A DNA stretch of 32,000 bases from Candidatus Iainarchaeum sp. (GTDB taxonomy: Archaea; Iainarchaeota; Iainarchaeia; Iainarchaeales; VGJJ01). The notes below the pieces were generated by a model. It saw only the letters and a program-made list of their open reading frames with translations. It ran no database searches and was not told where the DNA came from. The stretch is from positions 1-32,000 of the forward strand of contig JAUYHT010000008.1 in assembly GCA_030688545.1 (NCBI GenBank). The letters run 5' to 3'. Position numbers and translations under genes: made by a program. Below are positions 11,144 to 27,500 of this stretch, in pieces (within the stretch, counting starts at the first letter, position 1; each line of letters opens with the position of its first letter).

Positions 11144-11339
11144 CCCTCAGCTCTTTCAGTATTTCCTTCATTGAAATAGGGTTTTCCGCATCCTCAAATG
11201 CCCCATGCATGGATTTTCCCTTCTTCTGAATCAGCTTGTTGATTACCTGGTCATAGGTTTTCACGTGGTACGCCCCCTTGAGTGAGTCAAGGAACTTTTT
11301 GGTTTTCTGCTGGATTTGGATCGTTGTGGTTCCATCCAT
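11121..11339 (-). CDS. vapB: VapB-type antitoxin (putative RHH/CopG-like)
   Basis: 72 aa. N-terminus TTIQIQQKTKKFLDSLK resembles an RHH beta-strand plus helix; acidic/basic C-terminus. Overlapping position directly upstream of vapC. Confidence 0.65.
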   Translation of the reverse strand: MDGTTTIQIQQKTKKFLDSLKGAYHVKTYDQVINKLIQKKGKSMHGAFEDAENPISMKEILKELRVERDRDR

Positions 11340-11354
11340 GAAACACCACCCATG

Positions 11355-11370
11355 ACTATAGCACTATAGT
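11355..11370 (-). promoter_or_regulatory. Candidate vapBC operator/promoter: tandem ACTATAG repeats next to an AT-rich box
   Basis: actatag-c-actatag-t starts 16 nt upstream of the vapB start codon. Each unit contains the palindrome ctatag. It adjoins tatttaataat. Confidence 0.3.
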
Positions 11371-11433
11371 ATTTAATAATTGTGATGGTAAACCGCCGAG
11401 GAAGAAAGAAAAAGAACATCCCGTGCCTATTTT

Positions 11434-12081: not shown

Positions 12082-12162
12082 TTATTAATATTTTTGATGG
12101 GTGTTTTTTACTGATTGGCTTTTTGCTACTGCTGAATGTTAACCCACATAATCTCCTTCTTA

Positions 12163-13257
12163 CTATTTTTTCAGGAACTTTTCCAAATACCACCAGAACA
12201 GAATCTTGTACGCCAGCAGGGACGCATGAACCTCGATGAGGGGCGAAAGGACATTTTTACTATTGTATTTCCCGGATGGTTTACGGAGCAAGGGGGCAAT
12301 TTCGGTGATGTCAAATCCCACGAGAATTGATTTTTGTGTCTTGCATTGCTGGAGGATGGCAAACAAAACCTCCTGCAAACTTTCCATGCGCAAACCAAGA
12401 GGGAGGGGAGTCCCCGTGCCGGGAACGAGGGGGGGATCCAGGACATCCATGTCCAGGGAGATATACACGTATTTGGTTTTGATACTTGAGAGGATCATCC
12501 CCATTTGGGACGGGGAAATGAGGCCATTCATGATCATGTTGGACGGGGAGAATAGTCCTTTTTTCGGGGCATACGTCGTGTAAAAGGCCAATGGCTGGGT
12601 GGCGCAGAAGAAAATGGTTGATTCCCATTTGTTCTCACGGATGAAATCCGCCTCCTCCGAAGAAATGTGGTCGCGAATACCAATGTGGACCATGGGAAAT
12701 CCTTTCTTGCGCGCATTATGCATCACGGAGGCATGGGAATATTCCTGCGCGTCATAGGCTTCCCGCATATCCAGGTGGGCATCGAAATGGATGATGGTCA
12801 CATTTTCAGCGCCATGCACCTCATCCAGGGCGTTCAGAACTCCATTAGTGATGGAATGGTCGCCCCCTATTACCATGAGGAGCTTCTCGTCTTTCAAAAT
12901 CTTTTTGGATATCGTTTGAACACGTTTTACCATTTCCTGGGTTATTTTTTTGATCTCCAGCCACGCCCGTTTCTTCTTGATGGCCTTGGATACGTCGCGC
13001 GGACATTCAATGATACCCGCATGATGCACTTTCACTTTTTCAGAGAAATCCGTATGAAAATAAGGGACTTCCGTCTCAATCTGGAAGGACGCATCCAGGA
13101 AAGCCTGGGGGCCCAACCAGGCTCCTTTCCCATACGTGCACGTGATATCGCACGCGACCCCCACCATCACCACCTGGGCGTCCGAATAGGTAAAATTGGA
13201 ATTGAAGTTAGCAAATGTCTTGGATGGCAACCGCTTGAGAGAGGGAGATGGAATCAT
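12163..13257 (-). CDS. speB: Agmatinase / ureohydrolase family protein
   Basis: Mn-binding motifs VIGGDHSITNG, IIHFDAHLDMRE and SLDMDVLDP. The track ORF extends to 13479 but that part overlaps the upstream gene. ATG at 13257 (MIPSPSLKRL) lies 4 nt after the upstream stop. Confidence 0.8.
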   Translation of the reverse strand: MIPSPSLKRLPSKTFANFNSNFTYSDAQVVMVGVACDITCTYGKGAWLGPQAFLDASFQIETEVPYFHTDFSEKVKVHHAGIIECPRDVSKAIKKKRAWLEIKKITQEMVKRVQTISKKILKDEKLLMVIGGDHSITNGVLNALDEVHGAENVTIIHFDAHLDMREAYDAQEYSHASVMHNARKKGFPMVHIGIRDHISSEEADFIRENKWESTIFFCATQPLAFYTTYAPKKGLFSPSNMIMNGLISPSQMGMILSSIKTKYVYISLDMDVLDPPLVPGTGTPLPLGLRMESLQEVLFAILQQCKTQKSILVGFDITEIAPLLRKPSGKYNSKNVLSPLIEVHASLLAYKILFWWYLEKFLKK

Positions 13258-13261
13258 ATCA

Positions 13262-14473
13262 TTACCGCCCCATCCACGCGTTCTTAATAAGCCCGCCCGC
13301 CGACACGGGCCTACTCTCCTTTTCAGATGGGAAAAATAAGTGGGATAGGTCCTGCGACAAAGCGGGTTGGGTGTCCGCTCGGCAAAGCAGTCTTTTCCAG
13401 ATAGGTTTGATGTGCATGAGAGCGCGCGCTCCTTCGGGAGAAGGATGGCGTTGAAGATGGGTCTGAAGACGATGATCATAGGCGGATAAAGATGCCCGAG
13501 AAAAATCCGCGCGGGAATAAGCTTCCCAAATGGTTTCCCCCGCCATCCAACTGGAGGTTAATGCATCCCCTATTCCCATCCCTGAGAATGAATGGGCGAC
13601 CCCCGCCGCATCCCCAATGAGAAGGGCCCGGTTGAACACCCGTGGACGAGAACTCCCACGCAGGGGAATAACCTGTTCCTCCCAACCAGAAGAAAGGGAG
13701 TTGGGGGAGGAAGGGTGGGTCCATTCAAATGTACTCATCCATTTCTCCATCCATTCCACCAGATCCACGCGGTGGCGATCCATCCAGACAGGTGAAACGC
13801 AGGCGCCCACCGACACCTGGCCTTTTTCCAGGGGAACCATCCAAGTATAACCAGGACCTAATTCCTCATGGAAATGGATGTCTCCTTGTTTCGATTCAGT
13901 TGGGGAAGATGAAACAATTTTTTGCACCCCCATCATGGTGTGCCAGGCTGGATTTTCGAGCCCCCCTAATGACCGCGCCACTTCTGAAAAAGCCCCATCG
14001 GCCCCCACGACCATATCGCACGTCACGGTGCGGACTTGTCTCGTGGAAAGATCGGCGAGGCGCACCTCCACTTTATCTTGGAGAACATTCACCCCGGTGA
14101 CCTGCACCGATTCCCTGAATTCACACCCTTTGGTGGCATGTTCGAAAAGGATGTTATCCACCTGCTTCCGTGGGACGGAAGCCATGGCCAAATGAGGCGT
14201 AGTCGGCCGGTGGGCCGATTCCCATTCCTTCCCTTCATGGAAGAATGCCAACCCCTCTAACGAGTGGGCTCCCTTTTCAACCACTTTATCCCACACTCCC
14301 AATCGGGATAGCACATCCATGGCCTCCGGTAAAAGAAGGGCTGCTTTCCCCGTATCGCGGGGAAAAATGGATTTGTCCACGAGGAGCACGCGCAAACCCT
14401 TATCCCCTAGAAGGCGGGCACACGCACTCCCGGATGGTCCGGCTCCGCTCACCACTACATCATAGTCCTGCAT
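13262..14473 (-). CDS. FAD-dependent oxidoreductase, geranylgeranyl reductase family
   Basis: Rossmann motif YDVVVSGAGPSGSACARLLGDKGLRVLLVDK and downstream LIGDAAG. ATG at 14473 (MQDYDVVV) is preceded ~27 nt upstream by TTTATACA on the coding strand. Confidence 0.7.
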   Translation of the reverse strand: MQDYDVVVSGAGPSGSACARLLGDKGLRVLLVDKSIFPRDTGKAALLLPEAMDVLSRLGVWDKVVEKGAHSLEGLAFFHEGKEWESAHRPTTPHLAMASVPRKQVDNILFEHATKGCEFRESVQVTGVNVLQDKVEVRLADLSTRQVRTVTCDMVVGADGAFSEVARSLGGLENPAWHTMMGVQKIVSSSPTESKQGDIHFHEELGPGYTWMVPLEKGQVSVGACVSPVWMDRHRVDLVEWMEKWMSTFEWTHPSSPNSLSSGWEEQVIPLRGSSRPRVFNRALLIGDAAGVAHSFSGMGIGDALTSSWMAGETIWEAYSRADFSRASLSAYDHRLQTHLQRHPSPEGARALMHIKPIWKRLLCRADTQPALSQDLSHLFFPSEKESRPVSAGGLIKNAWMGR

Positions 14474-14594
14474 ATACCCCTCGACTCCCGAAAAGATGTA
14501 TAAAGGCAATGTGAGGGGACGAATGAAACTAGGCCCGGGGGAAATGGTTTATAAGCATTCTTCAGGGGGTTTGATTTAGAAATAGGTGATTCTC

Positions 14595-15317
14595 ATGGGA
14601 TTACGACCAGCCCACTGCTATCGTGGCACCGACAAACCCGCCTATACGCGGATCGCCATCAAGGTGCACCACAAAAACTTCATAGGAACCAACCCGGGGC
14701 TCCGTACGCGTCAATTCAACATGGGGAACCCCACCAAACCCTACTCCCATATCGTGGATTGGGTGGTGCAGGAACCCCATGTCCAGGTTCGTGACAACGC
14801 CATCGAAGCGGTGCGCATGGGATTCAACCGCCAGCTCGTGCACAAAATAGGGAAAGACAACTTCTTCATCCGAGTGAGGGTATACCCATTCCAAATTCTC
14901 CGGGAAAACAAGATCGCCCAAGGCGCCGGGGCGGACCGCGTGTCCTCGGGAATGAAACACTCTTTCGGAAAGCCCATCGGACGCGCCGTGCGCCTGCGGA
15001 AAAACCAGAAAGTGTTGAGTGTTCTTTGCGACGGCAGCCATGTGACGGTTGTAACCACGGCCCTTAATCGCGCGGCCACCAAATTCAACTGCAAGATGCT
15101 CCCCATCGTCCACCAAGACGTGACATCCATCGGCAACCTCCCCAAAAAGACGCGGGAAGAAAAGATCGAAGCCACCGTCACCACCCCTGTTGAGGGGGAA
15201 GTGGCGGCCGCGACCCCGGAAGTCGCCTCCAAGACGGGCGGGAAAGCCCCCGTCAAGGGTGTCGAGAAGAAGGATGCTGGGAAGAAGGGCGCGAAGAAAG
15301 ATGCCAAGAAGAAATAA
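14595..15317 (+). CDS. rpl10e: 50S ribosomal protein uL16 (L10e) with Lys-rich C-terminal extension
   Basis: RPAHCYRGTDKPAYTR...QFNMGN is the L10e N-terminal signature. GGTGAT Shine-Dalgarno sequence upstream of the ATG at 14595. The tail ends KKDAGKKGAKKDAKKK. Confidence 0.85.
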   Translation: MGLRPAHCYRGTDKPAYTRIAIKVHHKNFIGTNPGLRTRQFNMGNPTKPYSHIVDWVVQEPHVQVRDNAIEAVRMGFNRQLVHKIGKDNFFIRVRVYPFQILRENKIAQGAGADRVSSGMKHSFGKPIGRAVRLRKNQKVLSVLCDGSHVTVVTTALNRAATKFNCKMLPIVHQDVTSIGNLPKKTREEKIEATVTTPVEGEVAAATPEVASKTGGKAPVKGVEKKDAGKKGAKKDAKKK

Positions 15318-15368
15318 GGCGCATCATTTTCTTCTATTGCCAATCCACCCATTAGAACGCGTATCCCT

Positions 15369-16385
15369 ATGGACCATTCCCTGCACCTGGATGAGTTGCT
15401 CGCCGACGTGACGCAGCGCCAACCCCGGATGGTGCTGCTCCAGATCCCCGAAGGACTGAAGTCGAATGTCATTGATATCGAATCGGCGTTCGCCTCCAAA
15501 AACATCCCCACCATCACGGTGCTGGACCCGAGCTTCGGGGCATGCGACATCGCGGATCACAAAGCCAAGCTATTGGGGTGCGATTTGTTGGTGCATTTCG
15601 GCCACAGTAAAATGCTCCACGCGGGGATGGATGTCATCTATTGGCCAGTGGAATATCCCTTGGAAGAGGGGATGATCCAGGGGTGCGTGAATGCATTAGG
15701 TAAAGATCCATTTTGGTCGACACGCAGGAGGATAGGGATATATGTCACCATCCAATTCCATCGCCATCTTCCTGCCATTAGAAAGGGATTGGAGGACGCA
15801 GGATATATAGTTTTTGTTGGGCAAGGGGACTTGAAAGACGGTCAGGTTTTAGGATGCGATGTGTCCGCCCGGAGGGAAATAGAAGATAAAATCGACGCCA
15901 ACATCTATTTTGGGGATGGATATTTCCATGCGCTCGCTATCGCCTTTTCTTCCAAAAAACCCACGTATCTTTACAATCCATTCACGCGCACGCTTGAAGA
16001 TCTCCAATCCCACAAGGAAAAATACCTGCGCCAACGCTTTGGGTTACTGGCGCAAGCCCGGGACGCGCAGACGTTTGCCATTATTCTCTGCACCAAACGG
16101 GGGCAATTGCGAAAAGCCCTGGCGTTGAAGATGCAACAGATGCTCGCCGAAGCCGGAAAAAAAGGCGTGCTCGTGAGCATGGAGCACGTGAGCCCGGATT
16201 CATTATTGGGAATAAAGGTGGATGCCTATGTGAACACGAGCTGCTCCCGCATCGCCACGGACGATTTCCAATCCTATGCCAAACCCATGCTCACCCCCAT
16301 CGAAGTGGAAATATTGCTCGGGAAGCGGAAGCCCGAGGACTATGTGTTTGATGAAATACGGCATCTGGGGACCAAGGTGGCGTGA
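15369..16385 (+). CDS. dph2: Diphthamide biosynthesis protein Dph2 (2-(3-amino-3-carboxypropyl)histidine synthase)
   Basis: VLLQIPEGLK N-terminal signature. Size (338 aa) is typical of archaeal Dph2. Three spaced Cys residues (ACDI, GCDV, SCSR) are compatible with a 4Fe-4S site. Confidence 0.8.
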   Translation: MDHSLHLDELLADVTQRQPRMVLLQIPEGLKSNVIDIESAFASKNIPTITVLDPSFGACDIADHKAKLLGCDLLVHFGHSKMLHAGMDVIYWPVEYPLEEGMIQGCVNALGKDPFWSTRRRIGIYVTIQFHRHLPAIRKGLEDAGYIVFVGQGDLKDGQVLGCDVSARREIEDKIDANIYFGDGYFHALAIAFSSKKPTYLYNPFTRTLEDLQSHKEKYLRQRFGLLAQARDAQTFAIILCTKRGQLRKALALKMQQMLAEAGKKGVLVSMEHVSPDSLLGIKVDAYVNTSCSRIATDDFQSYAKPMLTPIEVEILLGKRKPEDYVFDEIRHLGTKVA

Positions 16386-16443
16386 ACCCCCAAAGCGGGC
16401 TATTGTACAAAAGTATAAATACCCCATTCGCGTCGCATCTTCC

Positions 16444-17082
16444 ATGGGGAATGTTCGTCGGGTGCGAAAAGTATTGAAACAAGAGGGGGCGTCTAACTCG
16501 TTGCGTTTTAGGGCCGTGCGTCCTCCGGTTTGGCGTCGGGGAAGCTTGCGGTTGCAGCTTAATCATCACAAGGAGTTGCAGGATCTATTAACTCGTTCGA
16601 CTCAAAATGTAATTAATCACAGGGATAGCATTATTGCTGGTCATATTCCCCCCAAACGGATTAATGATATTTTTAGAAACAAGTCCGGAGGATATGATGT
16701 CACCCCTTATACCCTCAGTATGCTCGGGCTGCCTCTTGGCACCACCGCATTAGCGGGAGGTGTTGAAGTAGCTGTTAGAGAACCTAATCCAGTTGGTTTA
16801 TTTCTTGGTTCCTCTTTGAGTATGATTGGGGCACTTATTCTGAGTGGTGGATTAATAACTTTTTCAGAGACCCGAAAAGCCCGATTATTTAGTGTTTTGA
16901 AGAAAAAGATATTTATCAACAATTCCAAAGAACCTTGGACAAAAGCGAAAAGCGAGCGAAACAGAGAAGTGGTGGATGCGGCGATTAATGAGTTGTTGGC
17001 TTTGCGGGAAGAGAACATTCACCAAATGATTCAAATTCAGGACCAAATGGCACGGGCGAAGCCGCGTCCCTCTGAAAAATAG
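16444..17082 (+). CDS. Hypothetical membrane protein (2 TM segments, coiled C-terminus)
   Basis: ATG at 16444 lies ~26 nt after a TATAAATA box (16414-16421). The longer track ORF from 16276 overlaps dph2. TM segments: LSMLGLPLGTTALAGGV and GLFLGSSLSMIGALILSGGLI. The body of the gene looks lower in GC than its neighbours. Confidence 0.5.
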   Translation: MGNVRRVRKVLKQEGASNSLRFRAVRPPVWRRGSLRLQLNHHKELQDLLTRSTQNVINHRDSIIAGHIPPKRINDIFRNKSGGYDVTPYTLSMLGLPLGTTALAGGVEVAVREPNPVGLFLGSSLSMIGALILSGGLITFSETRKARLFSVLKKKIFINNSKEPWTKAKSERNREVVDAAINELLALREENIHQMIQIQDQMARAKPRPSEK

Positions 17083-17221
17083 AACCGGAAAAATCAAAAA
17101 AAATATCGGAATTCATCTGCCCGCTAAAGCAGTAAGGGTTCTCCCGGAAACGACCCTAAACATTCCAGAAACATTGCCTAAGCAGGGAAACCCTTTTTAT
17201 CCATGCATGGGTGTTCCAGGA

Positions 17222-17830
17222 ATGACCAGATCTCCCCACTCGCGGATATTGCGTTCGATGAATCGGCCCGGCGTCACGTTAAGGATCGCGGTGTTGTACC
17301 GAAAGAAAAAGACCCGGAAGGAGATCGCCGCATACCTTTTCGAAAAATACGGGAAAGAATGGGAGATCCGCACGCCAAAGGAGATGGAATGGCTGATCGC
17401 CGGCCACCTCATCCGGTTTTCCAGAAAGAATTGGGTGCGCCTGTTTGAAGGGAAGGGAAGAGATGAGATCACGAAAGCGTATGAGGGATGGAAAGCCAAG
17501 CGCATGCAGATGAAAAACCCTAATCCGCGAGAGGGGAAATCGCATCAGAAAAAGACGATTGAATCCCGTCCGCGTAAACAAAACGGGCATTTTTCCAAGT
17601 CGCGCGAACTGGTCACGCAGATAAAAAACATATTGGAAAAGAAGGATAGGCGCGCCGTGACATACATCCTCTCCCGCCTAACGAATCCGCAGAGGGAGGT
17701 CGTGGAACTCGCCATACTCCAGCGACAGGATGTTTTCGATATTGCCGTGCAATTGAATATTGAACCGAGTGTGTTGTTCCACCGACTCCGCTTGGCCCAC
17801 GCCCGGATTATCACACTGGCGGATTATTGA
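17222..17830 (+). CDS. Basic protein with C-terminal sigma-70 region-4 / LuxR-like HTH
   Basis: C-terminus LTNPQREVVELAILQRQDVFDIAVQLNIEPSVLFHRLRLAHARI resembles a region-4 HTH. The track ORF opens at a TTG at 17174, with in-frame ATGs at 17207 and 17222, so the start is uncertain. Several antisense shadow ORFs overlap. Confidence 0.45.
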   Translation: MTRSPHSRILRSMNRPGVTLRIAVLYRKKKTRKEIAAYLFEKYGKEWEIRTPKEMEWLIAGHLIRFSRKNWVRLFEGKGRDEITKAYEGWKAKRMQMKNPNPREGKSHQKKTIESRPRKQNGHFSKSRELVTQIKNILEKKDRRAVTYILSRLTNPQREVVELAILQRQDVFDIAVQLNIEPSVLFHRLRLAHARIITLADY

Positions 17831-17835
17831 TCCGC

Positions 17836-18678
17836 TTACTCTTTCCACACACCCTTCTTAGAAATGGATTTGGTGGAGGTGATGAGAGTCCCCTCGAATA
17901 CGCCATCCGCGAGGGCCTCGGGAATATGGTCCACGTGCTTGCCCCAGATGAGAAAGGTGTCAATCCGGCTGCGCGCCATCACGAGGGCGGCGAGGGGATC
18001 CAGGATGAAAGGGGCTTCCGTATCGGCCATCCCCTGAGTGGCCATTCTGGAGAATTGGGCATGGGAAAAGATTTCCTCTGGAATACGAAAATCTGAGAGG
18101 AGGATGAGTTTTCCCCCCATTCGTTCGGCGAGCATGGCCGCGCGGGCCTCGGTAGAATAGGGACCACTGCTCCCCACCATGACCGGCAAGGCATCATTTT
18201 CCAGCACGCGAAGGGTTTCCTCTAAGTCCTCGCACACGTGGGGGTGGGCTTTGGAGAGTGTGCGCAACACCAAGGAGGAATGAATCCCACTCGAGGCCCG
18301 ATTGAGATGCTCAATCTCGGAGGATGGAACCCCTAATTGGTGGGCGGTGCGCGCTGCCAATCGTGTTTGGGATGATTCCCCTACTACCAGGGCGACGCGC
18401 ATCCCTTGCAAACGTAATCTTTCAAGCGTGGCGGACAAGGAATGCAACCAGGCGAGCTGGAATTTATTCCGGCGAAAGATGAGAGACCCTGGCACACATA
18501 CGACAAGGGCATTCGCCATCGCGGGGGCATCGGGCGGGGGAAGAGACGAGGGTTGGGGAAAGGAGGGGGGAAAATCAGAAGGGATTGGCGGACTGTCTTC
18601 GGGCGCACGGGAACCGGAACCATTCTCCTGCTCGGCATCACGGAATAAGTCGAACATATCCATTGGCGACCCGCCCAA
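17836..18678 (-). CDS. Amino-acid-kinase fold protein, divergent archaeal UMP kinase (PyrH)-like, with Pro-rich N-terminal extension
   Basis: Colinear with my recollection of archaeal PyrH: ALVVCVPGSLI, VALVVGESS, LPVMVGSSGPYSTE, FILDPLAALVMARS. The Gly-rich phosphate-binding motifs are substituted. An alternative start is M54 at 18519 (MANALVV). Confidence 0.6.
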   Translation of the reverse strand: MGGSPMDMFDLFRDAEQENGSGSRAPEDSPPIPSDFPPSFPQPSSLPPPDAPAMANALVVCVPGSLIFRRNKFQLAWLHSLSATLERLRLQGMRVALVVGESSQTRLAARTAHQLGVPSSEIEHLNRASSGIHSSLVLRTLSKAHPHVCEDLEETLRVLENDALPVMVGSSGPYSTEARAAMLAERMGGKLILLSDFRIPEEIFSHAQFSRMATQGMADTEAPFILDPLAALVMARSRIDTFLIWGKHVDHIPEALADGVFEGTLITSTKSISKKGVWKE

Positions 18679-18757
18679 AAACGACAGCTGCTACACCGCC
18701 CACATGGATGGATGCGCCCTCCTATAAAAACGTGTCGAGCCCCCTCTAATCTACCCC

Positions 18758-21514
18758 ATGCCCAAGGAAACCCTATTAGAGGCCGATTCCGCCGAGCAGG
18801 CGGTCTTCAAGAAGAAGCTGAAGGAGCTGTCAAGCTACAAAGGAAGGGGGACAGAACTCATTTCGGTGTACATCCCTCCCGGCACCGACCGGGGGGCGGT
18901 GATGAATCAATTGTCCACTGAAATGGGCCAGTCGGGCAACATCAAATCCCCTCAAACCAGGAAGAACGTGCAGACGGCGCTCAAGAAGATATCCAATTTT
19001 CTCAAGCAGACGGATTTCAAACTCCCCCCCACAGGACTCGTTTTATTCTGCGGGAATGTGGCAGAAACGGAAGGGCGAACGGATATCCGCCTGTTCACCG
19101 TGAAACCGGTGAAGCCCTTGCGGACGCGCCTCTACTGGTGCGATTCCTCGTTTCATTTGGACCCATTGCAGGAGATGATGGTCCCCACGGATTTGTACGC
19201 CTTGATCGTGATGGACAAGCGCGAGGCCACTGTGGCCTTGCTGGTGGGAAAACGATATGACATCATCGGGCATTTCACGAGTCACGTGGCCGGAAAATTT
19301 AGGGCGGGTGGACAGTGTTTAGACCCGAAAACACTGGTTGTTCTAAACGATGGAAATATTGTCCCAATCTCACGCGTTGAGCTAAATCAAGGAATAAAGA
19401 ATGCAGACACGGAGACCTTCTTGGTCCAAGACGCTCCTATTATTGACAAATGGAATGTCCAAAAGAGGAAAGTCATGATTATCACTAAATCTCCACGATT
19501 TGAGATTGTTTCTTCCCCCGAGCACGTGTTTTTTACCTATGACAAAGAAAACGATTTGGTCATTGAAAAAGAAGCTGCCCTACTGGCTCCAACCGATATT
19601 CTGCTGATGCCTGAAAAAATATCAATTAAAGGAATGACCCAAAAATTGAAAACCGAAGTGGAAAATACCTACACCCTTACCCCTGAAGGGTTGAAGAAGC
19701 TCATTGCTAAACGAAATGAAAAAGGGCTTTCACAGAAAGAGTTTGGTAAAAACATCGGCATCCATCAAGCCACCATATCCTCGTTGGAACGTGGAATATT
19801 TAATCCACGATTAGCGTACTTGAAAAATTACTGCAATAAACTGGACATCCGTTTTGAAGAATTCGTAGCAAAACATACGAAGAAAAAACGCGTACTCCCT
19901 GACAGCCTAACGGAAGAAGTGGCCCAGATAGCAGGTTATTTCTTGGGCGACGGACACTATGAAGATGAACGGCTCGGATTCTCGGAACAGCGAAAAGAAG
20001 TCGCTGAATATTATGCAGAGAAATGCAGAAATCTTTTCCAGGCCCCCGTTACAATCAAATACCGAGAGAAAAAAGGGTACTATCAAGTCCGCGTAAGCGG
20101 AAAATCGGCTGTACGGTATTTCAAAGAGAACGTGTTTACCGCCAAAAATGCATTGGAGACGGAAATCCCTCCTATTATCCTGCGTTCAAAGGATTCAGTC
20201 GTAGGAGCATTCCTAAAGGGCCTATTTGACGCGGAAGGATATATCTCTTCCGAGCGCCTGGGCCTCGGAGTTAACAATCCTCTATTGGCTAAACAGGTTC
20301 AATTGACCTTGCTTCGATTTGGAATCATTAGTTCCGTCCACGAATATGATTCTAAACAGAACCCTTATTCTGATGAGCATCGTTTTACGGTCGACCTAAC
20401 TGAAAAAGAATCCCTGGTTCGATTTCTCCATCACATTGGTGGGTTCACGGCTTCAGATAAGCAAGTCAAGCTAATCGAAAAGACAACCAAAACGAGCGAA
20501 AAAAGTAATGTACGCCAGCTCTTAGCTGGAGGAAAACTCATTCGAAAACTATTTGAGCAAGAAGGACTCAATACGCAGCATTTCAAAGGGGTCACCAATT
20601 TTTTCCGAAATGAACGCGAAATGAGTAAAGAGGTTTTTCGAAGACAAATACTCAATAAAGTAACAAACCCGGTCCTCAAAGAACAGTATCAGAAAATTCT
20701 GGATCGACAACTATTGCCCGTTCATATTTCGAGCATCGAAAAAGATCAAATTGAAATTCCCATGATTGACATTTCAGTTGAAAGACCAAACTTTTTTGCC
20801 AATGGGTTGCTGGTTCACAATTCCGCTCAACGCTTTGAACGCTTGCGCGAAGAAGCCGCGCAGGATTTTTATCGGAAAGTCTCGGAGAAGGTGAACGCGG
20901 CGCTGGAAGGAAAATGGGATAAACTCCGGGGGGTTGTGGTGGGGGGGCCGGGGCAGACCAAGCACCATTTCTTGGAGAAGGGGGAATTGGATTACCGGTT
21001 GAAAGAGAAAATACTGGGGACGCTTGACTTATCCTACACGGATGAATCAGGTATACGGGAGATCATCCAGAAGAGCGATGAGCTATTGCGGCACACCGAG
21101 ATGGTACGGGAAACAAAAGAGGTAGAGCACTTTTTCCAGGAAGTGGTAAAGGATGGGCTCGTGACCTATGGTGAGAAAGAGGTGGAAGCCGCGCTCGAAG
21201 CCGGAAAGGTTTCACGGCTGCTGCTGTCTGAAGGGATTACGTGGCGCATCATCAAAGTGGTGTGCACCCATTGTGGGTGGGAAAAAATATTCACGCTCAA
21301 GGATATTCATGAAGAGTTCGACGAGAACAAGATAAAATGCGAATCCTGCGGGTCGGGGGTGGAGACGGTGGAAGAAGTGGATTATTTGGACCACTTGCTC
21401 GAGAAAGCCCACCTCATGGGGACGGAAACAATAGTGATCAGCACCGAAACCGAAGCGGGGGCGCAATTCTACACCACCTTCGGGGGAATTGGGGCGCTGT
21501 TAAGGTACAAATAA
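18758..21514 (+). CDS. prf1: Peptide chain release factor aRF1 (eRF1 family) interrupted by an intein
   Basis: NIKS codon-recognition motif (GNIKSPQTRKN). GGQ motif (FRAGGQ) is followed by a Cys...HN|S insertion. The exteins total 413 aa, a normal aRF1 size. C-terminal Cys motif CTHCG...CESCG. Confidence 0.9.
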   Translation: MPKETLLEADSAEQAVFKKKLKELSSYKGRGTELISVYIPPGTDRGAVMNQLSTEMGQSGNIKSPQTRKNVQTALKKISNFLKQTDFKLPPTGLVLFCGNVAETEGRTDIRLFTVKPVKPLRTRLYWCDSSFHLDPLQEMMVPTDLYALIVMDKREATVALLVGKRYDIIGHFTSHVAGKFRAGGQCLDPKTLVVLNDGNIVPISRVELNQGIKNADTETFLVQDAPIIDKWNVQKRKVMIITKSPRFEIVSSPEHVFFTYDKENDLVIEKEAALLAPTDILLMPEKISIKGMTQKLKTEVENTYTLTPEGLKKLIAKRNEKGLSQKEFGKNIGIHQATISSLERGIFNPRLAYLKNYCNKLDIRFEEFVAKHTKKKRVLPDSLTEEVAQIAGYFLGDGHYEDERLGFSEQRKEVAEYYAEKCRNLFQAPVTIKYREKKGYYQVRVSGKSAVRYFKENVFTAKNALETEIPPIILRSKDSVVGAFLKGLFDAEGYISSERLGLGVNNPLLAKQVQLTLLRFGIISSVHEYDSKQNPYSDEHRFTVDLTEKESLVRFLHHIGGFTASDKQVKLIEKTTKTSEKSNVRQLLAGGKLIRKLFEQEGLNTQHFKGVTNFFRNEREMSKEVFRRQILNKVTNPVLKEQYQKILDRQLLPVHISSIEKDQIEIPMIDISVERPNFFANGLLVHNSAQRFERLREEAAQDFYRKVSEKVNAALEGKWDKLRGVVVGGPGQTKHHFLEKGELDYRLKEKILGTLDLSYTDESGIREIIQKSDELLRHTEMVRETKEVEHFFQEVVKDGLVTYGEKEVEAALEAGKVSRLLLSEGITWRIIKVVCTHCGWEKIFTLKDIHEEFDENKIKCESCGSGVETVEEVDYLDHLLEKAHLMGTETIVISTETEAGAQFYTTFGGIGALLRYK
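19316..20830 (+). mobile_element. 505-aa intein with LAGLIDADG homing endonuclease and XRE-type HTH, inserted at GGQ|S of aRF1
   Basis: Block A CLDPKTLVVL; block B SSPEH; dodecapeptides IAGYFLGDGHY and LKGLFDAEGYI; block G LLVHN with +1 Ser. HTH: LSQKEFGKNIGIHQATISSLERG. GC is about 40% in a sampled line versus about 58% in flanking extein DNA. Confidence 0.85.
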
Positions 21515-21523
21515 GGTGATGGG

Positions 21524-21955
21524 ATGACAATACGACTAGCCACTCTCGCAAATTTGGAAACCATACTCCCCATCATGCGTAAATTAGATGACGAGAACAA
21601 TCATTATTCCGAAGAGAAGGCAAAGAAGGACATCGAGGATCAGCACATGTATGTTTCGGTGCACCACAAGAAAATTGTTGGAGCGATGGTTGTGGACACC
21701 TACATCGGCACATGTGAAATTGTGCGGATTGTTTCAAACCAAAAAGGAAGCGGACGAGAAATGATCGAATATGTGATAGAAAAATGCAAGAAAGAGAAAA
21801 TTCCTAAAGTATGGTGCTGGAGTTCCTCCCGGCATAACGTGGAGGGGTTTTACGAGAAAATGGGATTTGAAGAAAGATATTTGCTCCGCAAGCAGTGGCA
21901 TGGAAAGGACTGTTGGCTATTTGGAAAAGTCATTCCGCTGGGCAAAGACCATTAA
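21524..21955 (+). CDS. GNAT-family N-acetyltransferase
   Basis: Acetyl-CoA-binding-like IVRIVSNQKGSGREMIEYVIEKC and FYEKMGFEE. GGTGAT Shine-Dalgarno sequence 3 nt before the ATG. Confidence 0.75.
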   Translation: MTIRLATLANLETILPIMRKLDDENNHYSEEKAKKDIEDQHMYVSVHHKKIVGAMVVDTYIGTCEIVRIVSNQKGSGREMIEYVIEKCKKEKIPKVWCWSSSRHNVEGFYEKMGFEERYLLRKQWHGKDCWLFGKVIPLGKDH

Positions 21956-21977
21956 ACTCATTGTTATTTGATTTAGT

Positions 21978-23222
21978 ATGCCCCTCCCCTATCTCACAAA
22001 AACCCCTCCCCTGGGCGGGCAATTGAAACGCCGCATCGAGGATTTCATGGTGGAGGAGGTTTTGGAGGATGGAACAATATGCGCCATCGAGCATTTGCAT
22101 ACCATTCCTTTTCCTCGAGTTAACTTGGATATTCCTCCCAATCTGGAACCGCGGACGCATGATCAATTGCATCTCTGGATGGAAAAATTCAATATCGAAA
22201 CCACCTTCGCCATTCGTCTCCTTTCGCGGGGAACCAGCACTGGGGTCAAGCGCATCGGGTACGCGGGATTGAAGGACAAGCGGGGGATCACGTGCCAACG
22301 TATTTCTTTGTGGAAACCGGATGTGGAGAAACTAAAGCGGTTTAATGTGCGGGGGCTATCTTTCCATCATGCGAGTTGGTCGGAAAAACGCATCGAGTTG
22401 GGAGACCTGAGAGGCAACCAATTCCGCATTGGGATAAGAGACATTGCATTCTCACCTGAGGAGACTAAAGCGCGCATCGAGGCATTCCAAACCCACCTGG
22501 GAAAGGGGCTTCCTAATTATTATGGGGAGCAACGCTTCGGGGGACATAGACAAGTGACGCATGTTGTAGGGAAATTATTGCTGCAAAACAAACTGGAAGA
22601 GGCCGTCATGACATATCTGACCAAACCAACGCCGGGGGAGGAAGAGGAGATTGCCGCGGCACGGAAAACCCTTTCTGAAACACATGACTTTTCCCGCGCA
22701 TTGAAGATGTTTCCCGACAAGTTCCATTTCGAAAAAGCCATGCTGGACCATCTGCACACCAAGCCCAATGATTTCGCGGGAGCCTTCCAGAAGCTGCCGC
22801 AGAAAACGCGATACTTATTCACTCACGCCTACCAGAGCCACGTGTTCAATGCCATCATCGCGGAACGATTGACGCGAGGGCTATTTTATCCCATCGAGGG
22901 GGATGTACTTGTAGATGGGGTGCCTACGGCGATATTGCCAGGAATCAAAACCACGTTCGCTACTGGTTTAGCGGGAGAGATTGAAAATGATGTGATGACG
23001 CAGGAGGGCATCACGCCTGGTTTTTTTGCCCAAGCCAAGATGGGCGAACTCATGAGCTGGGGGATCCGCAAACCCATGATGCTGCGCGTGAATGATTTCC
23101 GATTGCTCCAGGTGGGAGAAGATGTTTGGTATCCGGGAAAAAATTTTGCCCGCGTCGCCTTCTCATTAGGAAAAGGGGCGTATGCCACCACGGTGTTACG
23201 CGAACTCATGAAAACAGAATGA
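21978..23222 (+). CDS. truD: tRNA pseudouridine synthase TruD/Pus7 family
   Basis: N-terminal GGQLKRRIEDFMVEEV and the catalytic-Asp motif GYAGLKDKRGITCQRIS are TruD hallmarks. Confidence 0.85.
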   Translation: MPLPYLTKTPPLGGQLKRRIEDFMVEEVLEDGTICAIEHLHTIPFPRVNLDIPPNLEPRTHDQLHLWMEKFNIETTFAIRLLSRGTSTGVKRIGYAGLKDKRGITCQRISLWKPDVEKLKRFNVRGLSFHHASWSEKRIELGDLRGNQFRIGIRDIAFSPEETKARIEAFQTHLGKGLPNYYGEQRFGGHRQVTHVVGKLLLQNKLEEAVMTYLTKPTPGEEEEIAAARKTLSETHDFSRALKMFPDKFHFEKAMLDHLHTKPNDFAGAFQKLPQKTRYLFTHAYQSHVFNAIIAERLTRGLFYPIEGDVLVDGVPTAILPGIKTTFATGLAGEIENDVMTQEGITPGFFAQAKMGELMSWGIRKPMMLRVNDFRLLQVGEDVWYPGKNFARVAFSLGKGAYATTVLRELMKTE

Positions 23223-23228
23223 CTTCCT

Positions 23229-23248
23229 CCCCACTCTAAAGGGTGGGG
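23229..23248. terminator. Hairpin immediately after the truD stop (ccccac-N8-gtgggg)
   Basis: 6-bp GC-rich stem starting 7 nt after the TGA, followed by an A/T-rich run. Confidence 0.35.
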
Positions 23249-23349
23249 TATCCAACAAATAAAAAACGTCACCTGCACGCGTGATCGCTCGCCAAACAAT
23301 GGGCGACGAATGTCGCCGGCCAGTTTCGGCTGACCGCTGCGATTTTGGT

Positions 23350-24540: not shown

Positions 24541-27500
24541 TTACATCCCGTCGATGGCGTTGATCAAAGCCTGCGCCGCTCGACCGGTGTCTTCCGCCGT
24601 GTACCCAGCGACCACGATGTTCGATCCGAACACACCCGAGACGAAGTCTCCTGGAGTGTTCAACTGATCGGCCACATCCTGGGCCAAGCTGTTCACGATG
24701 GGTCCGCCTACAATAATTTTGGGGCCGACCAATGTGGTGGCGGTCGTATAGACGCGGAGGTTCCCGTTCAGGGGAGCTGGCGTCATATACGTGAAGGGAC
24801 TTCCGGGTACGGTGGAGCTGGTGCTCCCTCCCGCCTCAATGGTGGCGGTGTACTTGATCTCCTTCACCGTGACTTGCGTCCCGGTAGTGAAGGTACCTGT
24901 GTCGCCTTCATTGACCTCGATCTCTTCGCCGCCTTCCACAGTTGTTGTGGAGGAAGCGCCGGTCACGAGGAACTCGACCTCCGGTCGGTTCTGGGGCATC
25001 CAAACTTCAACATTATTGGAGTTGAGCTTGACTTTAGAGCCCCAATCCGTATACGCGGCTTGCAACGCGTTGTCGACATTCTTGTTCGACAGCGTGAAGG
25101 TCTGTCCATTGATTCCAGATCCGCCGTATCCGTAATTCACGTCGGACGCCGGCAATGTCAGGTCGGTGTCATCCACATCCGGCACATCGTCGGTCTGATT
25201 ATCGATGTACACCTTGATGGGGTAGTTCGAACTGTTATTTTCGTCTATCACGAACTGGGACGAATAGATGGTTGTGCTCGAACCGTCCTGACCCACATCG
25301 TTGTTTTGCGGGTAGTAGTACGGTCGGTTGGCCGTATTATCTTCTCCCACATCCGTCCCTATGAGCGCCAAGCGTTTATTGTTCTGCATGGTGCTTCCAA
25401 CGGGGATGGTCACGCCGCGCGTGCCTGCGCTATTCACATTCACCACTGGTGAAGCGACCGGGGTCGTTCCATCGGCGGTGTTGGAATTGGAGTCGCCCAA
25501 CAGATAGAGGTACAATCCCTCTTCCCCATTAGTTGTCGTGCCCGTGACGGCACCATCCGATTCGATGACCTGGTACGCATAGGCGACAAAATAGGTATCT
25601 CCAGACAGCGGGAGCTTAATGGCCGCCGTTGAAATACCGGTTGAGTTCGCGTCGTCATAGAAGAACGCGTTCGTCAATGCGTTGGTCGGGGTATTGCCCG
25701 CTTGGACGGAAGCCGCTGAACCAGCCAGACCCCCGAGGAAGTCGGACGTAGACGTACTACTATTCAGGGCGGCTTTGGACATACGGACATATCCGTCGGC
25801 GCGCAGCATGACTCCGGCGGCGCCATTGCCCAAAATCGTGTAAGTGACTCCGTTAATGGTCACGTCACCCACTACATTCGTGTCTTTGGATCCCTGGTCA
25901 GTAATAAGCAGACCGCTCGCCCCAGTGTATTGGACTGCGACCCCATTCAAGAGCGTCCCGTCCGCGACATTGAAGTCCGTGGTGGTCTTGTTGATGTCGT
26001 AGTACAATGTTTTATTGCTGTTGTCGAAGGCGAATGACACCCCGTTGTTGAACGAGGAGGTATCGGTCTCCGATTGGGCGATCCAGAATGGAATATTGTG
26101 TTCCGAATCAGCCGCATCGCGGAAAGTGATTTGGTTATCCCCGATCTGGACATAAGTTAATTCTTCATCCTGCTGCAACCCATTGAAGGTCACCGAGAAG
26201 AATCCTTCTCCCAATGCGCCGGTGCCCTCTAACCAACTCATGGAGTAGGGAGCATTGTCCAAGTCGGCATTCAAATGCCCGTACCTGGCGCGCATGGGGT
26301 TTTCGTCATCGAACACGGAGGCCGGCCAACTGTCCACCAAAATCTCGGCGGTCGTGCTGGGCGAGCTGATGCTCGACTTTTTTCGGTTCTTGACAACCAC
26401 TTTGGTCAAGCGGTTCGTGTCCGTCGTATTGGTGATGTTGACGATGTACGGCCCGTTCAGGTTTTCGGAATCGATGTCGTCGTGGTAGGGATAGTTTTCC
26501 CCGTCCTTCAAACGAAGGGAGGCTGTCCCCACTAACAAATCGACCGTTCCCTGATTGGTTCCCGTGGTCACGGCAGCAGAATCGACGTAGATGTCTCCGC
26601 TCACGACCTCATCGCCATCGGCGTCTTCGAAATCAACGAAGTTGCCGGCCGAAACAGTCTGTGTGTCGATCACATTACCTGCTTCGTCCAAGAGGTTGAA
26701 CTTACCCTCATAGGAGGCCGCGGCTGGCCCGGTGGCCACGATGGACACAACCGTCACCGTCAAGGTCTGACCCTCATAATCTCCCTTTCCGGGGACCGTG
26801 AAGGATTCGCCCGCGACGAACGTCTGCTTGGCCTTGTCTTCGATCAAGCGGAGTTCTGAAACATCCCGCGCGGAATCTATGTCCACCTTCTGCACGAGGT
26901 ACATCTTCCCGAAGAAGGGAATGCGGATGTTGTCGTCCGAACCGTCAACAAAGTCGGCGGTGGAGGCATCGGTTGTCCCGATAGGGATACCGGCACCCAA
27001 GTCCAAGGTGTAGTTCAAGTCGCTCGCGTCGATATCGGCGACGAGATCCTTAACATCCTGGTCCTGGTCGAACTTGGCGTTCAGCTTGACGCCAATCTTC
27101 TCTTTCACCGTGATATCGGTGGTGGAATCGTTGTACTTGTAGGACATCGTCTTGTCCGTCAAAAAGGCCAAGGGATCGACGCCTATCTCCTGCGTGTACT
27201 CGGCGGTCGTACCGACCGAATTCAGAGTAGCGCTATTGAATGTCTTCCCGCCCGTGACGGTGACAGTTCCACCCAGCGCCAGGACAGCCGACAAGTCAGT
27301 CACCACGACGCTTCCGCCGCCAGTGCCTCCATTGCCGGTAAAGGTCATTTCTTTCACTGCTTTTGACGCAGCGGCCACGGCGATGTTACCCGCCCACACG
27401 GCATCCGAAATAGCCGCGGTCTGTCCAACAACCAAGTTCACTACGGGAGACATTCCCGCGTCATACATGACGGACTTGGCTTGGGCCGACGTTATCTGGG

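What the first reader, a model, noticed from the sequence alone, without database searches (positions are those of the whole stretch)
19316..20830. Intein splits the universally conserved GGQ|S catalytic motif of aRF1
The extein sequence reads ...GKFRAGGQ | C-LDPKT...(505 aa)...LLVHN | S-AQRFERLREE.... The element sits exactly between the Gln of the GGQ peptidyl-tRNA hydrolysis motif and the following Ser, which serves as the +1 nucleophile.

All splicing blocks (A Cys, B SxxH, G HN) and both LAGLIDADG motifs look intact, and the spliced product would be a normal 413-aa aRF1. Because aRF1 is essential, the cell depends on efficient splicing. The intein DNA is much lower in GC than the host gene, suggesting recent invasion from, or shared ancestry with, the AT-rich accessory pool. 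I cannot verify from memory whether an aRF1 GGQ-site insertion allele is already catalogued.
Basis: partly seen in the sequence, partly recalled or inferred. Interest (0 to 1): 0.65.

Follow-up and report, generated by a model that had tools for sequence, protein, structure and literature searches.

The report
Homing intein splitting aRF1's GGQ motif
A self-splicing mobile protein element, carrying its own DNA-cutting domain and an extra DNA-binding domain, sits exactly inside the catalytic GGQ loop of the translation-termination factor aRF1 of a DPANN (Iainarchaeota-type) archaeon. It is real and looks functional, and it belongs to an intein family that is common in DPANN metagenomes but that I could not find described in any paper.

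Summary
One uninterrupted 918-aa ORF (18758-21514, +) encodes aRF1 with a 502-aa intein at nt 19316-20821, not 505 aa ending at 20830. It lies between Gln186 of GGQ and Ser. The spliced product is 416 aa, not 413.

The element is a canonical class 1 intein. Cys1, S67-x-x-H70, D485, H501-N502 and +1 Ser are conserved across 62 homologues. It holds a two-motif LAGLIDADG endonuclease (D212, E307), an XRE-type HTH_3 domain between N-HINT and the endonuclease, and a second helical accessory domain. The AlphaFold model (pLDDT 95) matches the TliVMA, PI-TkoII and PI-PfuI inteins.

Syntenic Iainarchaeota relatives with 72-85% identical exteins have empty GGQ|S sites, and the insertion is a clean 1506 nt. 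At least 90 other DPANN aRF1 genes carry a homologous intein at the same site, as full-length, HTH-less or mini forms. Comparison with the closest copy (76% aa) gives dN/dS of about 0.06 in every domain. Intein GC3 is 0.42 against 0.58-0.73 for core genes.

Verdict: a genuine, probably active homing intein, and a new member of a known kind. The allele is in databases but not in the papers searched. In passing, Aenigmatarchaeota aRF1s read GGM, not GGQ.

The parts
18758..19315 (+). aRF1 N-extein (aa 1-186), ending in ...GKFRAGGQ. Contains NIKS (aa 61-64) and YWCDSSF (aa 126-132).
   Evidence: Pfam eRF1_1 and the first part of eRF1_2, TIGR03676. Motifs located. 83% identical to the N-extein of the empty-site loci L002 and L005.
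19316..20821 (+). Intein: 502 aa, class 1, with a nested LAGLIDADG homing endonuclease and two accessory domains.
   Evidence: Boundaries. Pfam Intein_splicing 53 bits, LAGLIDADG_3 77 bits, HTH_3 48.5 bits. AF2 model pLDDT 95.2, pTM 0.93. Foldseek top hits are the TliVMA, PI-TkoII, PI-PfuI, PhoVMA and PI-SceI inteins.
19316..19675 (+). N-terminal HINT lobe (intein aa 1-120), including Cys1 (block A) and S67-P-E-H70 (block B, nt 19514-19525).
   Evidence: C1 and H70 invariant, S67 near-invariant in 62 sequences. Beta-rich in the model. Retained in the mini-inteins P0174, P0183 and P0187.
19682..19876 (+). XRE/Cro-type helix-turn-helix domain (HTH_3; intein aa 123-187), inserted between N-HINT and the endonuclease.
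   Evidence: Pfam HTH_3 E 8.8e-13. PDB sequence hits to C.BclI and HigA. Five helices, H123-187, in the model. Core residues conserved in 53 HTH-bearing homologues. Cleanly absent in about 35 homologues.
19877..20515 (+). LAGLIDADG homing endonuclease domain (intein aa 188-400). Motif 1 is IAGYFLGDG (nt 19928-19954, catalytic D212). Motif 2 is LKGLFDAEG (nt 20213-20239, catalytic E307).
   Evidence: Two LAGLIDADG_3 stretches. G211-D212-G213 and F304-D305-A306-E307-G308 near-invariant. Sequence match to PI-PfuI 1dq3. Foldseek matches to I-DmoI and I-Tsp061I. dN 0.15 and dS 3.4 against L045.
20516..20710 (+). Second helical accessory domain (intein aa 401-465), between the endonuclease and C-HINT. 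This is the position of the 'ACD' in the VMA inteins.
   Evidence: Four helices, H406-462, at pLDDT above 90. 81% identical to L045, the most conserved sub-domain. Position corresponds to the ACD described in PMC8966425.
20711..20821 (+). C-terminal HINT lobe (intein aa 466-502), with block F/G MIDISVERPNFFANGLLVHN (D485, H501, N502).
   Evidence: D485, F493, A495, H501 and N502 invariant. Retained in the mini-inteins. TIGR01443 intein_Cterm weak hit.
20822..21514 (+). aRF1 C-extein (aa 187-416 of the spliced protein, plus stop), beginning with the +1 Ser: SAQRFERLREE...
   Evidence: Pfam eRF1_2 (profile 41-131) and eRF1_3. TIGR03676 positions 174-402. Matches in empty-site loci resume exactly at 20822.

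Best explanation
The prf1 (aRF1) gene of this Iainarchaeota-type DPANN archaeon carries a canonical class 1 intein in-frame, between Gln186 of the GGQ peptidyl-tRNA-hydrolysis motif and Ser187.

The 918-aa precursor cannot function as a release factor, because the GGQ loop is interrupted by a 58-kDa insert. The HINT domain removes itself and joins the exteins into a normal 416-aa aRF1. It uses Cys1 for the N-S acyl shift, Ser+1 for trans-esterification, and Asn502 cyclisation assisted by His501, His70 and Asp485.

The nested two-motif LAGLIDADG endonuclease recognises and cuts intein-free prf1 alleles at the GGQ|S-coding sequence. That DNA is conserved because the peptide is conserved. Repair then copies the intein in (homing). 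The XRE-type HTH_3 domain and the second helical accessory domain most likely add DNA contacts next to the endonuclease saddle.

What is shown: the sequence, fold, precise insertion, conservation, purifying selection, and population-level presence, absence and degeneration. What is inferred: splicing, cleavage, and the role of the HTH.
For: Anatomy:
- One open frame with a clean 1506-nt insertion relative to syntenic empty alleles.
- aRF1 equivalog score of 437 bits, split at the insertion.
- Intein_splicing, LAGLIDADG_3 (two stretches) and HTH_3 all above Pfam cut-offs.

Catalytic residues:
- C1, H70, D485, H501 and N502 are invariant in 62 homologues.
- S67, G211-D212-G213 and D305-A306-E307-G308 are conserved in at least 90% of them.
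- The +1 residue is Ser in all 74 database homologues.

Fold:
- AF2 model with pLDDT 95.2 and pTM 0.93.
- Best PDB matches are HEN-associated archaeal inteins: TliVMA 7qss (E 2.6e-23), PI-TkoII 2cw7, PI-PfuI 1dq3, PhoVMA 7qst and PI-SceI.

Selection:
- Against the closest copy (L045, 502 aa, gapless, 76.5% aa), dN is 0.15 and dS about 2.4.
- Low dN holds in HINT-N, HTH, HEN, ACD and HINT-C alike. The intein is at least as constrained as the exteins (dN 0.15 and 0.27).

Homing-cycle signature:
- Of 62 Iainarchaeota species-representative loci, 44 have empty sites and at least 15 carry an intein of about 500 aa at the same site.
- The nearest extein relatives (85-72% identity) are empty.
- HTH-less versions and mini-inteins of 139-142 aa exist at the same site.
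- The window-L045 pair is the strongest outlier, with the intein more similar than the exteins predict (z 3.8).

Composition and assembly:
- Intein GC3 is 0.416, against exteins 0.73 and 0.65 and core genes 0.58-0.73.
- The Logan assembly is identical to the window over 14.5 kb.
Against: - No experiment: splicing and endonuclease activity are inferred from sequence only.
- Block B has Ser rather than the more usual Thr, although Ser is near-invariant in this family.
- The nearest known copy is only 76% identical. A scan of JGI metagenome contigs found no closer one. There is therefore no direct evidence of recent mobility.
- Intein and extein divergence are correlated (r = 0.85). That is also compatible with long vertical residence plus repeated loss.
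- Part of the low GC is a family-wide trait.
- Conservation of the endonuclease could reflect a domesticated function rather than homing.
Confidence: 0.88

Rival explanations
1. The intein still splices, so aRF1 is made, but its endonuclease is no longer an active homing enzyme. The element would be fixed and vertically inherited in this lineage, heading towards the mini-intein state.
For: Intein and extein identities are correlated across loci (r = 0.85). No copy closer than 76% was found in GTDB genomes, JGI metagenome contigs or IMG/VR. Mini-inteins and HTH-less derivatives at the same site show that degeneration does happen in this family.
Against: Both catalytic acidic residues and the LAGLIDADG cores are intact and near-invariant. 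dN/dS in the HEN domain is about 0.05 against L045, no weaker than in the HINT lobes. Closer host relatives have empty sites, and the window-L045 intein is more similar than the exteins predict.
Confidence: 0.2
2. The intein is retained because it is useful. One version is conditional (redox-, temperature- or stress-dependent) splicing at Cys1 that gates the supply of active release factor. Another is that the released intein acts through its XRE-type HTH as a DNA-binding regulator.
For: All domains, including HTH_3 and the second accessory domain, are under strong purifying selection. The insertion in the catalytic loop guarantees an inactive precursor. Conditional splicing is an established idea for other inteins; Topilina et al. 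2015 on RadA is cited in PMC4760082.
Against: Most relatives, including the closest ones, do without the intein. The HTH was lost several times in the family without loss of the intein. Nothing in the sequence points to a sensor. The presence, absence and degeneration pattern is what a selfish homing element gives.
Confidence: 0.08
3. The insert is a dead, non-splicing element, making prf1 a pseudogene, or it is an assembly chimera.
For: Only that neither splicing nor read support could be tested here. A second aRF1 copy elsewhere in the genome cannot be excluded from a 32-kb window.
Against: The frame is uninterrupted for 918 codons. All splicing residues are intact and invariant. Purifying selection acts on both intein and exteins. 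The Logan assembly gives the identical sequence. Boundaries are codon-precise relative to 44 empty alleles, and the same architecture occurs in about 90 other genes.
Confidence: 0.02

Closest known systems
HEN-associated archaeal inteins with solved structures: TliVMA (7QSS), PhoVMA (7QST), PI-TkoII (2CW7), PI-PfuI (1DQ3)
   Same: Class 1 splicing residues. HINT domain split by a two-motif LAGLIDADG endonuclease. A helical accessory domain between the HEN and C-HINT. These are the best Foldseek matches (E 2.6e-23 to 1.8e-15, TM up to 0.77 on the target), and PI-PfuI is also the best sequence match. The ACDs of TliVMA and PI-TkoII are HTH-like (PMC8966425).
   Different: Different host protein and site (V-ATPase P-loop, PolB and RNR, against the aRF1 GGQ loop). 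Only 12-19% sequence identity. In the VMA inteins the N-HINT to HEN connection is an unstructured loop of 28-32 residues. Here it holds a bona fide Pfam HTH_3 (XRE/Cro) domain, so this intein has two accessory domains.
aRF1 GGQ-site inteins of Woesearchaeota, Pacearchaeota, Nanoarchaeota, Aenigmatarchaeota and other Iainarchaeota in public MAGs. JGI calls them 'peptide subunit release factor 1 (eRF1)/intein/homing endonuclease'. NCBI calls them 'helix-turn-helix domain-containing protein' or 'LAGLIDADG family homing endonuclease'.
   Same: Same insertion point (GG[Q/M/F]|C...HN|S), same domain order, homologous over all 502 residues (E down to 1e-122).
   Different: Identity is only 29-52%, except for L045 at 76.5%. 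The window's copy sits in the highest-GC host seen and shows the largest intein-extein GC gap. I found no paper that describes this allele.
PI-SceI (yeast VMA1 intein)
   Same: The paradigm of an intein whose HINT domain and extra region help a LAGLIDADG domain bind a long target. Foldseek E 4e-12. Homing into an essential gene at a conserved catalytic motif.
   Different: Eukaryotic host. Its DNA-recognition region is part of the HINT domain, not an independent HTH_3 module. Global superposition is poor (rmsd about 26 Å, different domain arrangement).
WhiA (bacterial LAGLIDADG-plus-HTH transcription factor; 3HYI, 8DY9)
   Same: Combination of a LAGLIDADG fold with a helix-turn-helix DNA-binding domain. 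Foldseek E about 4e-06.
   Different: WhiA's LAGLIDADG domain is catalytically dead, its HTH is C-terminal, and it is not in an intein. Here the catalytic acids are intact and the HTH precedes the endonuclease.

Membership tests
Class 1 intein (HINT protein-splicing domain) | N-terminal nucleophile (Cys or Ser) as the first intein residue (block A) | tested here: met
   Cys1 follows GGQ directly. It is invariant in 62 aligned homologues.
Class 1 intein (HINT protein-splicing domain) | Block B T/S-x-x-H | tested here: met
   S67-P-E-H70. H70 is invariant and S67 is conserved in at least 90%. Ser replaces the commoner Thr throughout this family.
Class 1 intein (HINT protein-splicing domain) | Block F Asp, block G penultimate His and terminal Asn, followed by a +1 Ser/Thr/Cys in the C-extein | tested here: met
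   D485, H501 and N502 are invariant. +1 is Ser in the window and in all 74 database homologues.
Class 1 intein (HINT protein-splicing domain) | HINT fold | tested here: met
   AF2 model pLDDT 95.2. Foldseek probability 1.00 to five intein crystal structures. Pfam Intein_splicing 53 bits against a 35.8 cut-off.
Class 1 intein (HINT protein-splicing domain) | In-frame, codon-precise insertion in a conserved host protein whose homologues lack it | tested here: met
   44 empty GGQ|S alleles in Iainarchaeota. Matches in syntenic loci break at 19315 and resume at 20822.
Class 1 intein (HINT protein-splicing domain) | Autocatalytic protein splicing that yields ligated exteins | not testable with these tools
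   Needs expression of the precursor and SDS-PAGE or mass spectrometry.
LAGLIDADG homing endonuclease (single-chain, two-motif) | Two LAGLIDADG helices, each ending in a metal-binding Asp or Glu | tested here: met
   IAGYFLGD212G and LKGLFDAE307G, near-invariant in the family. Two LAGLIDADG_3 stretches.
LAGLIDADG homing endonuclease (single-chain, two-motif) | Alpha-beta-beta-alpha-beta-beta-alpha pseudo-dimer fold | tested here: met
   Foldseek matches to I-DmoI and I-Tsp061I, TM 0.63-0.75 on the target. Secondary-structure order in the model.
LAGLIDADG homing endonuclease (single-chain, two-motif) | Site-specific cleavage of the intein-less allele | not testable with these tools
   Indirect support only: dN/dS of about 0.05 in the domain and the patchy distribution.
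aRF1/eRF1 class I release factor (host protein) | Three eRF1 domains with NIKS, YxCxxxF and GGQ motifs, scoring above the equivalog cut-off | tested here: met
   TIGR03676 437 bits against a 234.7 cut-off. eRF1_1, eRF1_2 and eRF1_3 present. NIKS at 61, YWCDSSF at 126 and GGQ at 184 in the spliced sequence. 85% identity to intein-free aRF1 P0075.
XRE/Cro-type HTH (Pfam HTH_3) | Five-helix bundle with the HTH_3 sequence signature | tested here: met
   HTH_3 48.5 bits against a cut-off of 23. PDB sequence hits to C.BclI and HigA. Helices 123-135, 140-147, 151-158, 166-175 and 180-187 in the model.
XRE/Cro-type HTH (Pfam HTH_3) | Sequence-specific DNA binding | not testable with these tools
   Needs EMSA or footprinting of the intein with and without residues 123-187.

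The most novel reading that the evidence does not exclude
aRF1 is a previously undescribed intein host in which the mobile element occupies the catalytic GGQ loop. In some relatives a second intein also splits the stop-codon-recognition YxCxxxF motif. The intein would then be more than a parasite.

Its naturally acquired XRE-type repressor domain might let the excised intein act as a sequence-specific DNA-binding regulator, or retarget the endonuclease. Splicing at Cys1 might act as a post-translational gate on the cell's only release factor, tying translation termination to redox or stress state in genome-reduced DPANN archaea.
Probability: 0.07. Interest if true: 0.75.

Novelty: new member of a known kind. 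Interest (0 to 1): 0.42.

Why it matters
Inteins are known mostly in replication, recombination and repair proteins. A large survey states that core translation components 'contain few inteins' (PMC4760082). An intein in the single most conserved catalytic motif of the archaeal and eukaryotic release factor extends the rule that inteins home into catalytic centres to translation termination.

It also supplies a natural series at one site: full-length with HTH, HTH-less, mini-intein and empty alleles. That series is well suited to studying the homing cycle in uncultivated DPANN archaea.

The HTH_3 module is a natural counterpart of the engineered swap in which a 434-repressor domain replaced an intein accessory domain (PMC8966425). 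It supports that paper's proposal that inteins recruit DNA-binding domains from transcription factors.

Practically, these genes are mis-named in NCBI records ('helix-turn-helix domain-containing protein', 'LAGLIDADG family homing endonuclease'). aRF1 can therefore appear to be missing from such MAGs.

Tried and rejected
1. Assembly artefact: rejected. The Logan contig L001 is 100% identical over 14,550 nt.

2. Pseudogene or dead intein: rejected on intact, invariant splicing residues and dN/dS.

3. Low GC as proof of recent invasion: weakened.
- Inteins are AT-richer than their exteins in all 16 loci.
- However, the GC3 gap here is the largest, and the intein groups with the AT-rich block rather than the core genes.
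- I found no evidence that links the intein to the AT-rich block at 519-10168 beyond composition.

4. Search for a near-identical donor copy: nothing found.
- The JGI metagenome contig scan gave only an unrelated 25% LAGLIDADG match.
- IMG/VR viral contigs gave only 21-28% LAGLIDADG matches, so there is no sign of a viral vector.

5. Literature: nine full-text searches and the Novikova 2016 survey turned up no description of an aRF1/eRF1 intein.
- The supplements of that survey are not held.
- InBase-type lists could not be consulted, so absence from the literature is not proven.

6. HTH_3 as unique to aRF1 inteins: rejected. Homologous HTH-bearing inteins occur in a dCMP deaminase and in a metallo-beta-lactamase-fold protein.

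7. The first word-indexed homologue search missed the Iainarchaeota inteins, including the closest one. They came from the genome scan.

8. The NJ tree of inteins is rough. I use it only to say that HTH-less forms are scattered.
Full report
**1. The observation**

The window holds one uninterrupted ORF at 18758-21514 (+), 918 aa. Translation shows ...GKFRAGGQ followed by CLDPKT..., and 502 residues later ...LLVHN followed by SAQRFERLREE.

- The insert is aa 187-688 of the precursor, which is nt 19316-20821 (1506 nt).
The intein is 502 aa, not 505. The true end is 20821, not 20830. The spliced protein is 416 aa, not 413.
- GC is 41.6% in the insert, 53.4% in the exteins and 47.0% in the window.

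**2. What the parts are**

- The precursor scores 437 bits on the NCBIfam aRF-1 equivalog (cut-off 234.7). The match is split at the insertion point.
- Pfam finds eRF1_1, eRF1_2 and eRF1_3 in the exteins.
- The spliced sequence has NIKS (61), YWCDSSF (126) and GGQ (184).
- By sequence, the closest solved structures are PI-PfuI for the endonuclease, and the controller protein C.BclI and antitoxin HigA for the HTH.
- An AlphaFold2 model built on 62 homologues has mean pLDDT 95.2 and pTM 0.93.
- Its best Foldseek matches in the PDB are the HEN-associated archaeal inteins TliVMA, PI-TkoII, PI-PfuI and PhoVMA. PI-SceI follows, then free LAGLIDADG enzymes (I-DmoI, I-Tsp061I) and WhiA.

The domain order in the model is:

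| Domain | Intein residues |
|---|---|
| N-HINT | 1-120 |
| Five-helix HTH_3 | 123-187 |
| LAGLIDADG endonuclease | 188-400 |
| Four-helix accessory domain | 401-465 |
| C-HINT | 466-502 |

**3. Are the catalytic residues intact?**

In an alignment of the window intein with 61 homologues:

- C1, H70 (block B), D485 (block F), H501 and N502 (block G) are invariant.
- S67 (block B), G211-D212-G213 and F304-D305-A306-E307-G308 (the two LAGLIDADG motifs with their metal-binding acids) are conserved in at least 90%.
- The +1 residue is Ser in every homologue.

The element therefore meets every sequence criterion of a class 1 intein with an active-type single-chain LAGLIDADG endonuclease.

**4. Is it an artefact?**

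- The identical 918-aa protein is encoded on a 14.6-kb contig of the Logan assembly of run SRR13727534.
- That contig is 100% identical to window 8758-23307, across both junctions.

**5. Host and empty sites**

- The spliced aRF1 is closest to intein-free aRF1s of Iainarchaeota/Diapherotrites MAGs (85%, then 76-72% identity). All are 416-417 aa with GGQSAQ.
- A scan of GTDB species-representative genomes returned 62 loci. Of these, 44 have an empty GGQ|S site, and at least 15 carry an intein of 499-507 aa (one of 426 aa) at exactly the same place.
- Gene order (upstream gene, aRF1, TruD) is conserved. In the empty loci the similarity stops at 19315 and resumes at 20822, so the insertion is a clean 1506 nt.
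- The 60 nt around the site are 45-50/60 identical between the window and its closest empty relatives. This is expected for a homing site encoded by an invariant peptide.

**6. The family**

- All 74 database clusters found with the intein alone are aRF1 proteins with the intein at the same site. They come from Woesearchaeota, Pacearchaeota and Nanoarchaeota MAGs.
- JGI already labels several 'eRF1/intein/homing endonuclease'. NCBI labels them 'helix-turn-helix domain-containing protein' or 'LAGLIDADG family homing endonuclease'.
- An exhaustive HMMER search of 1.84 billion representatives gave 63 hits at E <= 1e-30. Of the 147 newly listed top representatives, 43 are aRF1s with the GGQ-site intein.
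- Three size classes coexist at the site: about 500 aa with HTH_3, about 420-440 aa without it, and mini-inteins of 139-142 aa that keep only residues 1 to about 103 and about 464 to 502.
- In a rough NJ tree the HTH-less forms are scattered, which suggests repeated loss.
- Among the 53 HTH-bearing inteins the HTH_3 signature residues are conserved.

**7. Selection and history**

The closest intein is in L045. That contig is labelled Thaumarchaeota but is syntenic with the window.

- L045's intein is 502 aa, aligns without gaps, and is 76.5% identical at the amino-acid level and 73.4% at the nucleotide level. The exteins are 72.6% and 67.7% identical.
- NG86 gives dN 0.15 and dS about 2.4 (saturated). 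dN is similarly low in every sub-domain. For the exteins dN is 0.15 and 0.27. The whole intein, including endonuclease and HTH, has been under strong purifying selection.
- Across 19 full-length pairs of intein and extein, identities correlate (r = 0.85). The window-L045 pair is the largest positive outlier (z = 3.8).
- Closer host relatives have empty sites.

Together this favours lateral homing between related lineages. Vertical descent with several losses is not excluded.

**8. Composition**

- Intein GC3 is 0.416.
- The exteins have GC3 0.73 and 0.65, and the other core genes of the window 0.58-0.73.
- The AT-rich block at 519-10168 has GC3 0.28-0.47. It holds a type III restriction-modification pair, a CAP protein and a DsbA-like protein.
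- However, homologous inteins are AT-richer than their exteins in all 16 loci. The difference is 0.03-0.12 in GC and is largest in the window.

The low GC therefore fits acquisition from the mostly low-GC DPANN intein pool with incomplete amelioration. It does not by itself date the event. No closer copy was found in JGI metagenome contigs or IMG/VR.

**9. Mechanism**

- Shown: anatomy, fold, conserved residues, precise insertion, purifying selection, and the patchy distribution with degenerate derivatives.
- Inferred from established intein chemistry: an N-S acyl shift at Cys1, trans-esterification to Ser+1, Asn502 cyclisation, and an O-N shift that gives a normal GGQ-S peptide bond.
- Inferred from the LAGLIDADG paradigm: cleavage of empty prf1 alleles, with repair copying the intein in.
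- Because the GGQ loop must reach the peptidyl-transferase centre, the precursor is almost certainly inactive. If this is the only aRF1, the cell depends on splicing.
- Beyer et al. 2022 describe diverse accessory domains (ACDs) between the HEN and C-HINT, some of them HTH-like. They show that ACDs modulate DNA cleavage, and they engineered a swap to a 434-repressor domain (PMC8966425).
- The window intein has such an ACD. It also has a true XRE-family HTH in the N-HINT to HEN linker, which is an unstructured loop in the VMA inteins. I infer that the HTH adds DNA contacts. A regulatory role cannot be excluded.

**10. Comparison with what is known, and novelty**

By every testable criterion this is a member of the class 1 intein / LAGLIDADG HEN kind.

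New relative to the literature I could search:
- The host and site. No paper on an aRF1/eRF1 intein was found.
- The main text of the Novikova 2016 survey lists aIF2 but no release factor, and says translation components contain few inteins.
- The HTH_3 module in that position.

Not new as data:
- About 90 homologous alleles are in public databases, some auto-annotated.
- HTH_3-bearing homologous inteins also occur in a dCMP deaminase and in a metallo-beta-lactamase-fold protein.

I rate it a new member of a known kind, of moderate interest.

**11. Side observations**

- All 120 best relatives of the Aenigmatarchaeota-type aRF1 read GG[M/F/W]-S instead of GGQ-S. These are the hosts of the most distant inteins, P0072-P0074. 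Of the 114 intein-free ones, 106 have Gln two residues later. That gives GGxSQ, the motif Burroughs and Aravind report for VLRF-1 families (PMC6514570). The other eight have Ala or Ser there. I found no paper on this.
- Two aRF1 representatives carry a second intein that splits Y-x|C of the YxCxxxF stop-codon-recognition motif.

Noticed in passing
Not in the window: proteins P0072-P0074 and P0195-P0314: aRF1s named 'aRF-1 [Candidatus Aenigmatarchaeota archaeon]' lack the supposedly universal Gln of GGQ. All 120 best hits read KGG[M/F/W]-S. Of these, 114 are intein-free and 6 carry mini-inteins at GGM|C. Gln sits two residues later in 106, giving GGxSQ as in the VLRF-1 families of PMC6514570, but Ala or Ser sits there in 8. 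NIKS is kept in 106 of the 120. Whether these genomes also have a GGQ paralogue is unknown. No paper was found.
   Followed up: partly
Not in the window: P0342 (1187 aa) and P0359 (1452 aa): These aRF1 proteins carry two inteins. One is the GGQ-site intein with HTH_3. The other is inserted at ...YLY[M/R]|C...HN|CDDH..., immediately before the invariant Cys of the YxCxxxF stop-codon-recognition motif. Both functional motifs of aRF1 are therefore intein targets.
   Followed up: partly
Not in the window: P0385 and P0394: Homologous inteins with the same HINT, HTH_3, LAGLIDADG order occur in a dCMP/cytidine deaminase and in a metallo-beta-lactamase-fold protein. Related inteins in RadA, DHH/RecJ-like and GATase (GlmS-like) proteins lack the HTH. 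The HTH_3 accessory module is therefore a recurrent feature of this intein lineage and is not specific to aRF1.
   Followed up: partly
window 519-10168: An AT-rich block (GC 35-40%, GC3 0.28-0.47, against 0.58-0.73 in the rest of the window). It holds a type III restriction-modification pair (ResIII helicase 519-2735 on the minus strand, N6/N4 methylase 2698-4488 on the minus strand), a CAP-family protein, a thioredoxin/DsbA-like protein and several ORFs with no Pfam hit. It looks like a laterally acquired island.
   Followed up: partly
L045 (JAGVNS010000137.1, labelled 'Thaumarchaeota archaeon isolate DeMMO3_24'): This contig carries the closest homologue of the window's intein-bearing aRF1. 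It shares the window's gene order (upstream gene, aRF1, TruD). It is probably an Iainarchaeota contig mis-binned into a Thaumarchaeota MAG.
   Followed up: partly
Not in the window: P0174, P0183, P0187: Iainarchaeota-like aRF1s carry mini-inteins of 139-142 aa at the same GGQ|S site. They retain only the HINT lobes and are 38-42% identical to the window's HINT parts. The HTH, endonuclease and accessory domain have been deleted in one piece.
   Followed up: yes
window 24541-27585 (-): A 1014-aa ORF with core-like composition (GC3 0.70) has no Pfam family at E <= 1e-3. The ORFs at 17174-17830 (+) and 17836-18678 (-), next to aRF1, also have no Pfam hit. The latter is conserved upstream of aRF1 in relatives.
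   Followed up: no
L026 (JAZDJQ010000004.1) 3977-5252: The empty-site aRF1 of this Iainarchaeum MAG, 78% identical to the window's exteins, is split between two reading frames near locus position 4860-4890. This is either a frameshift or an assembly error in that record.
   Followed up: no
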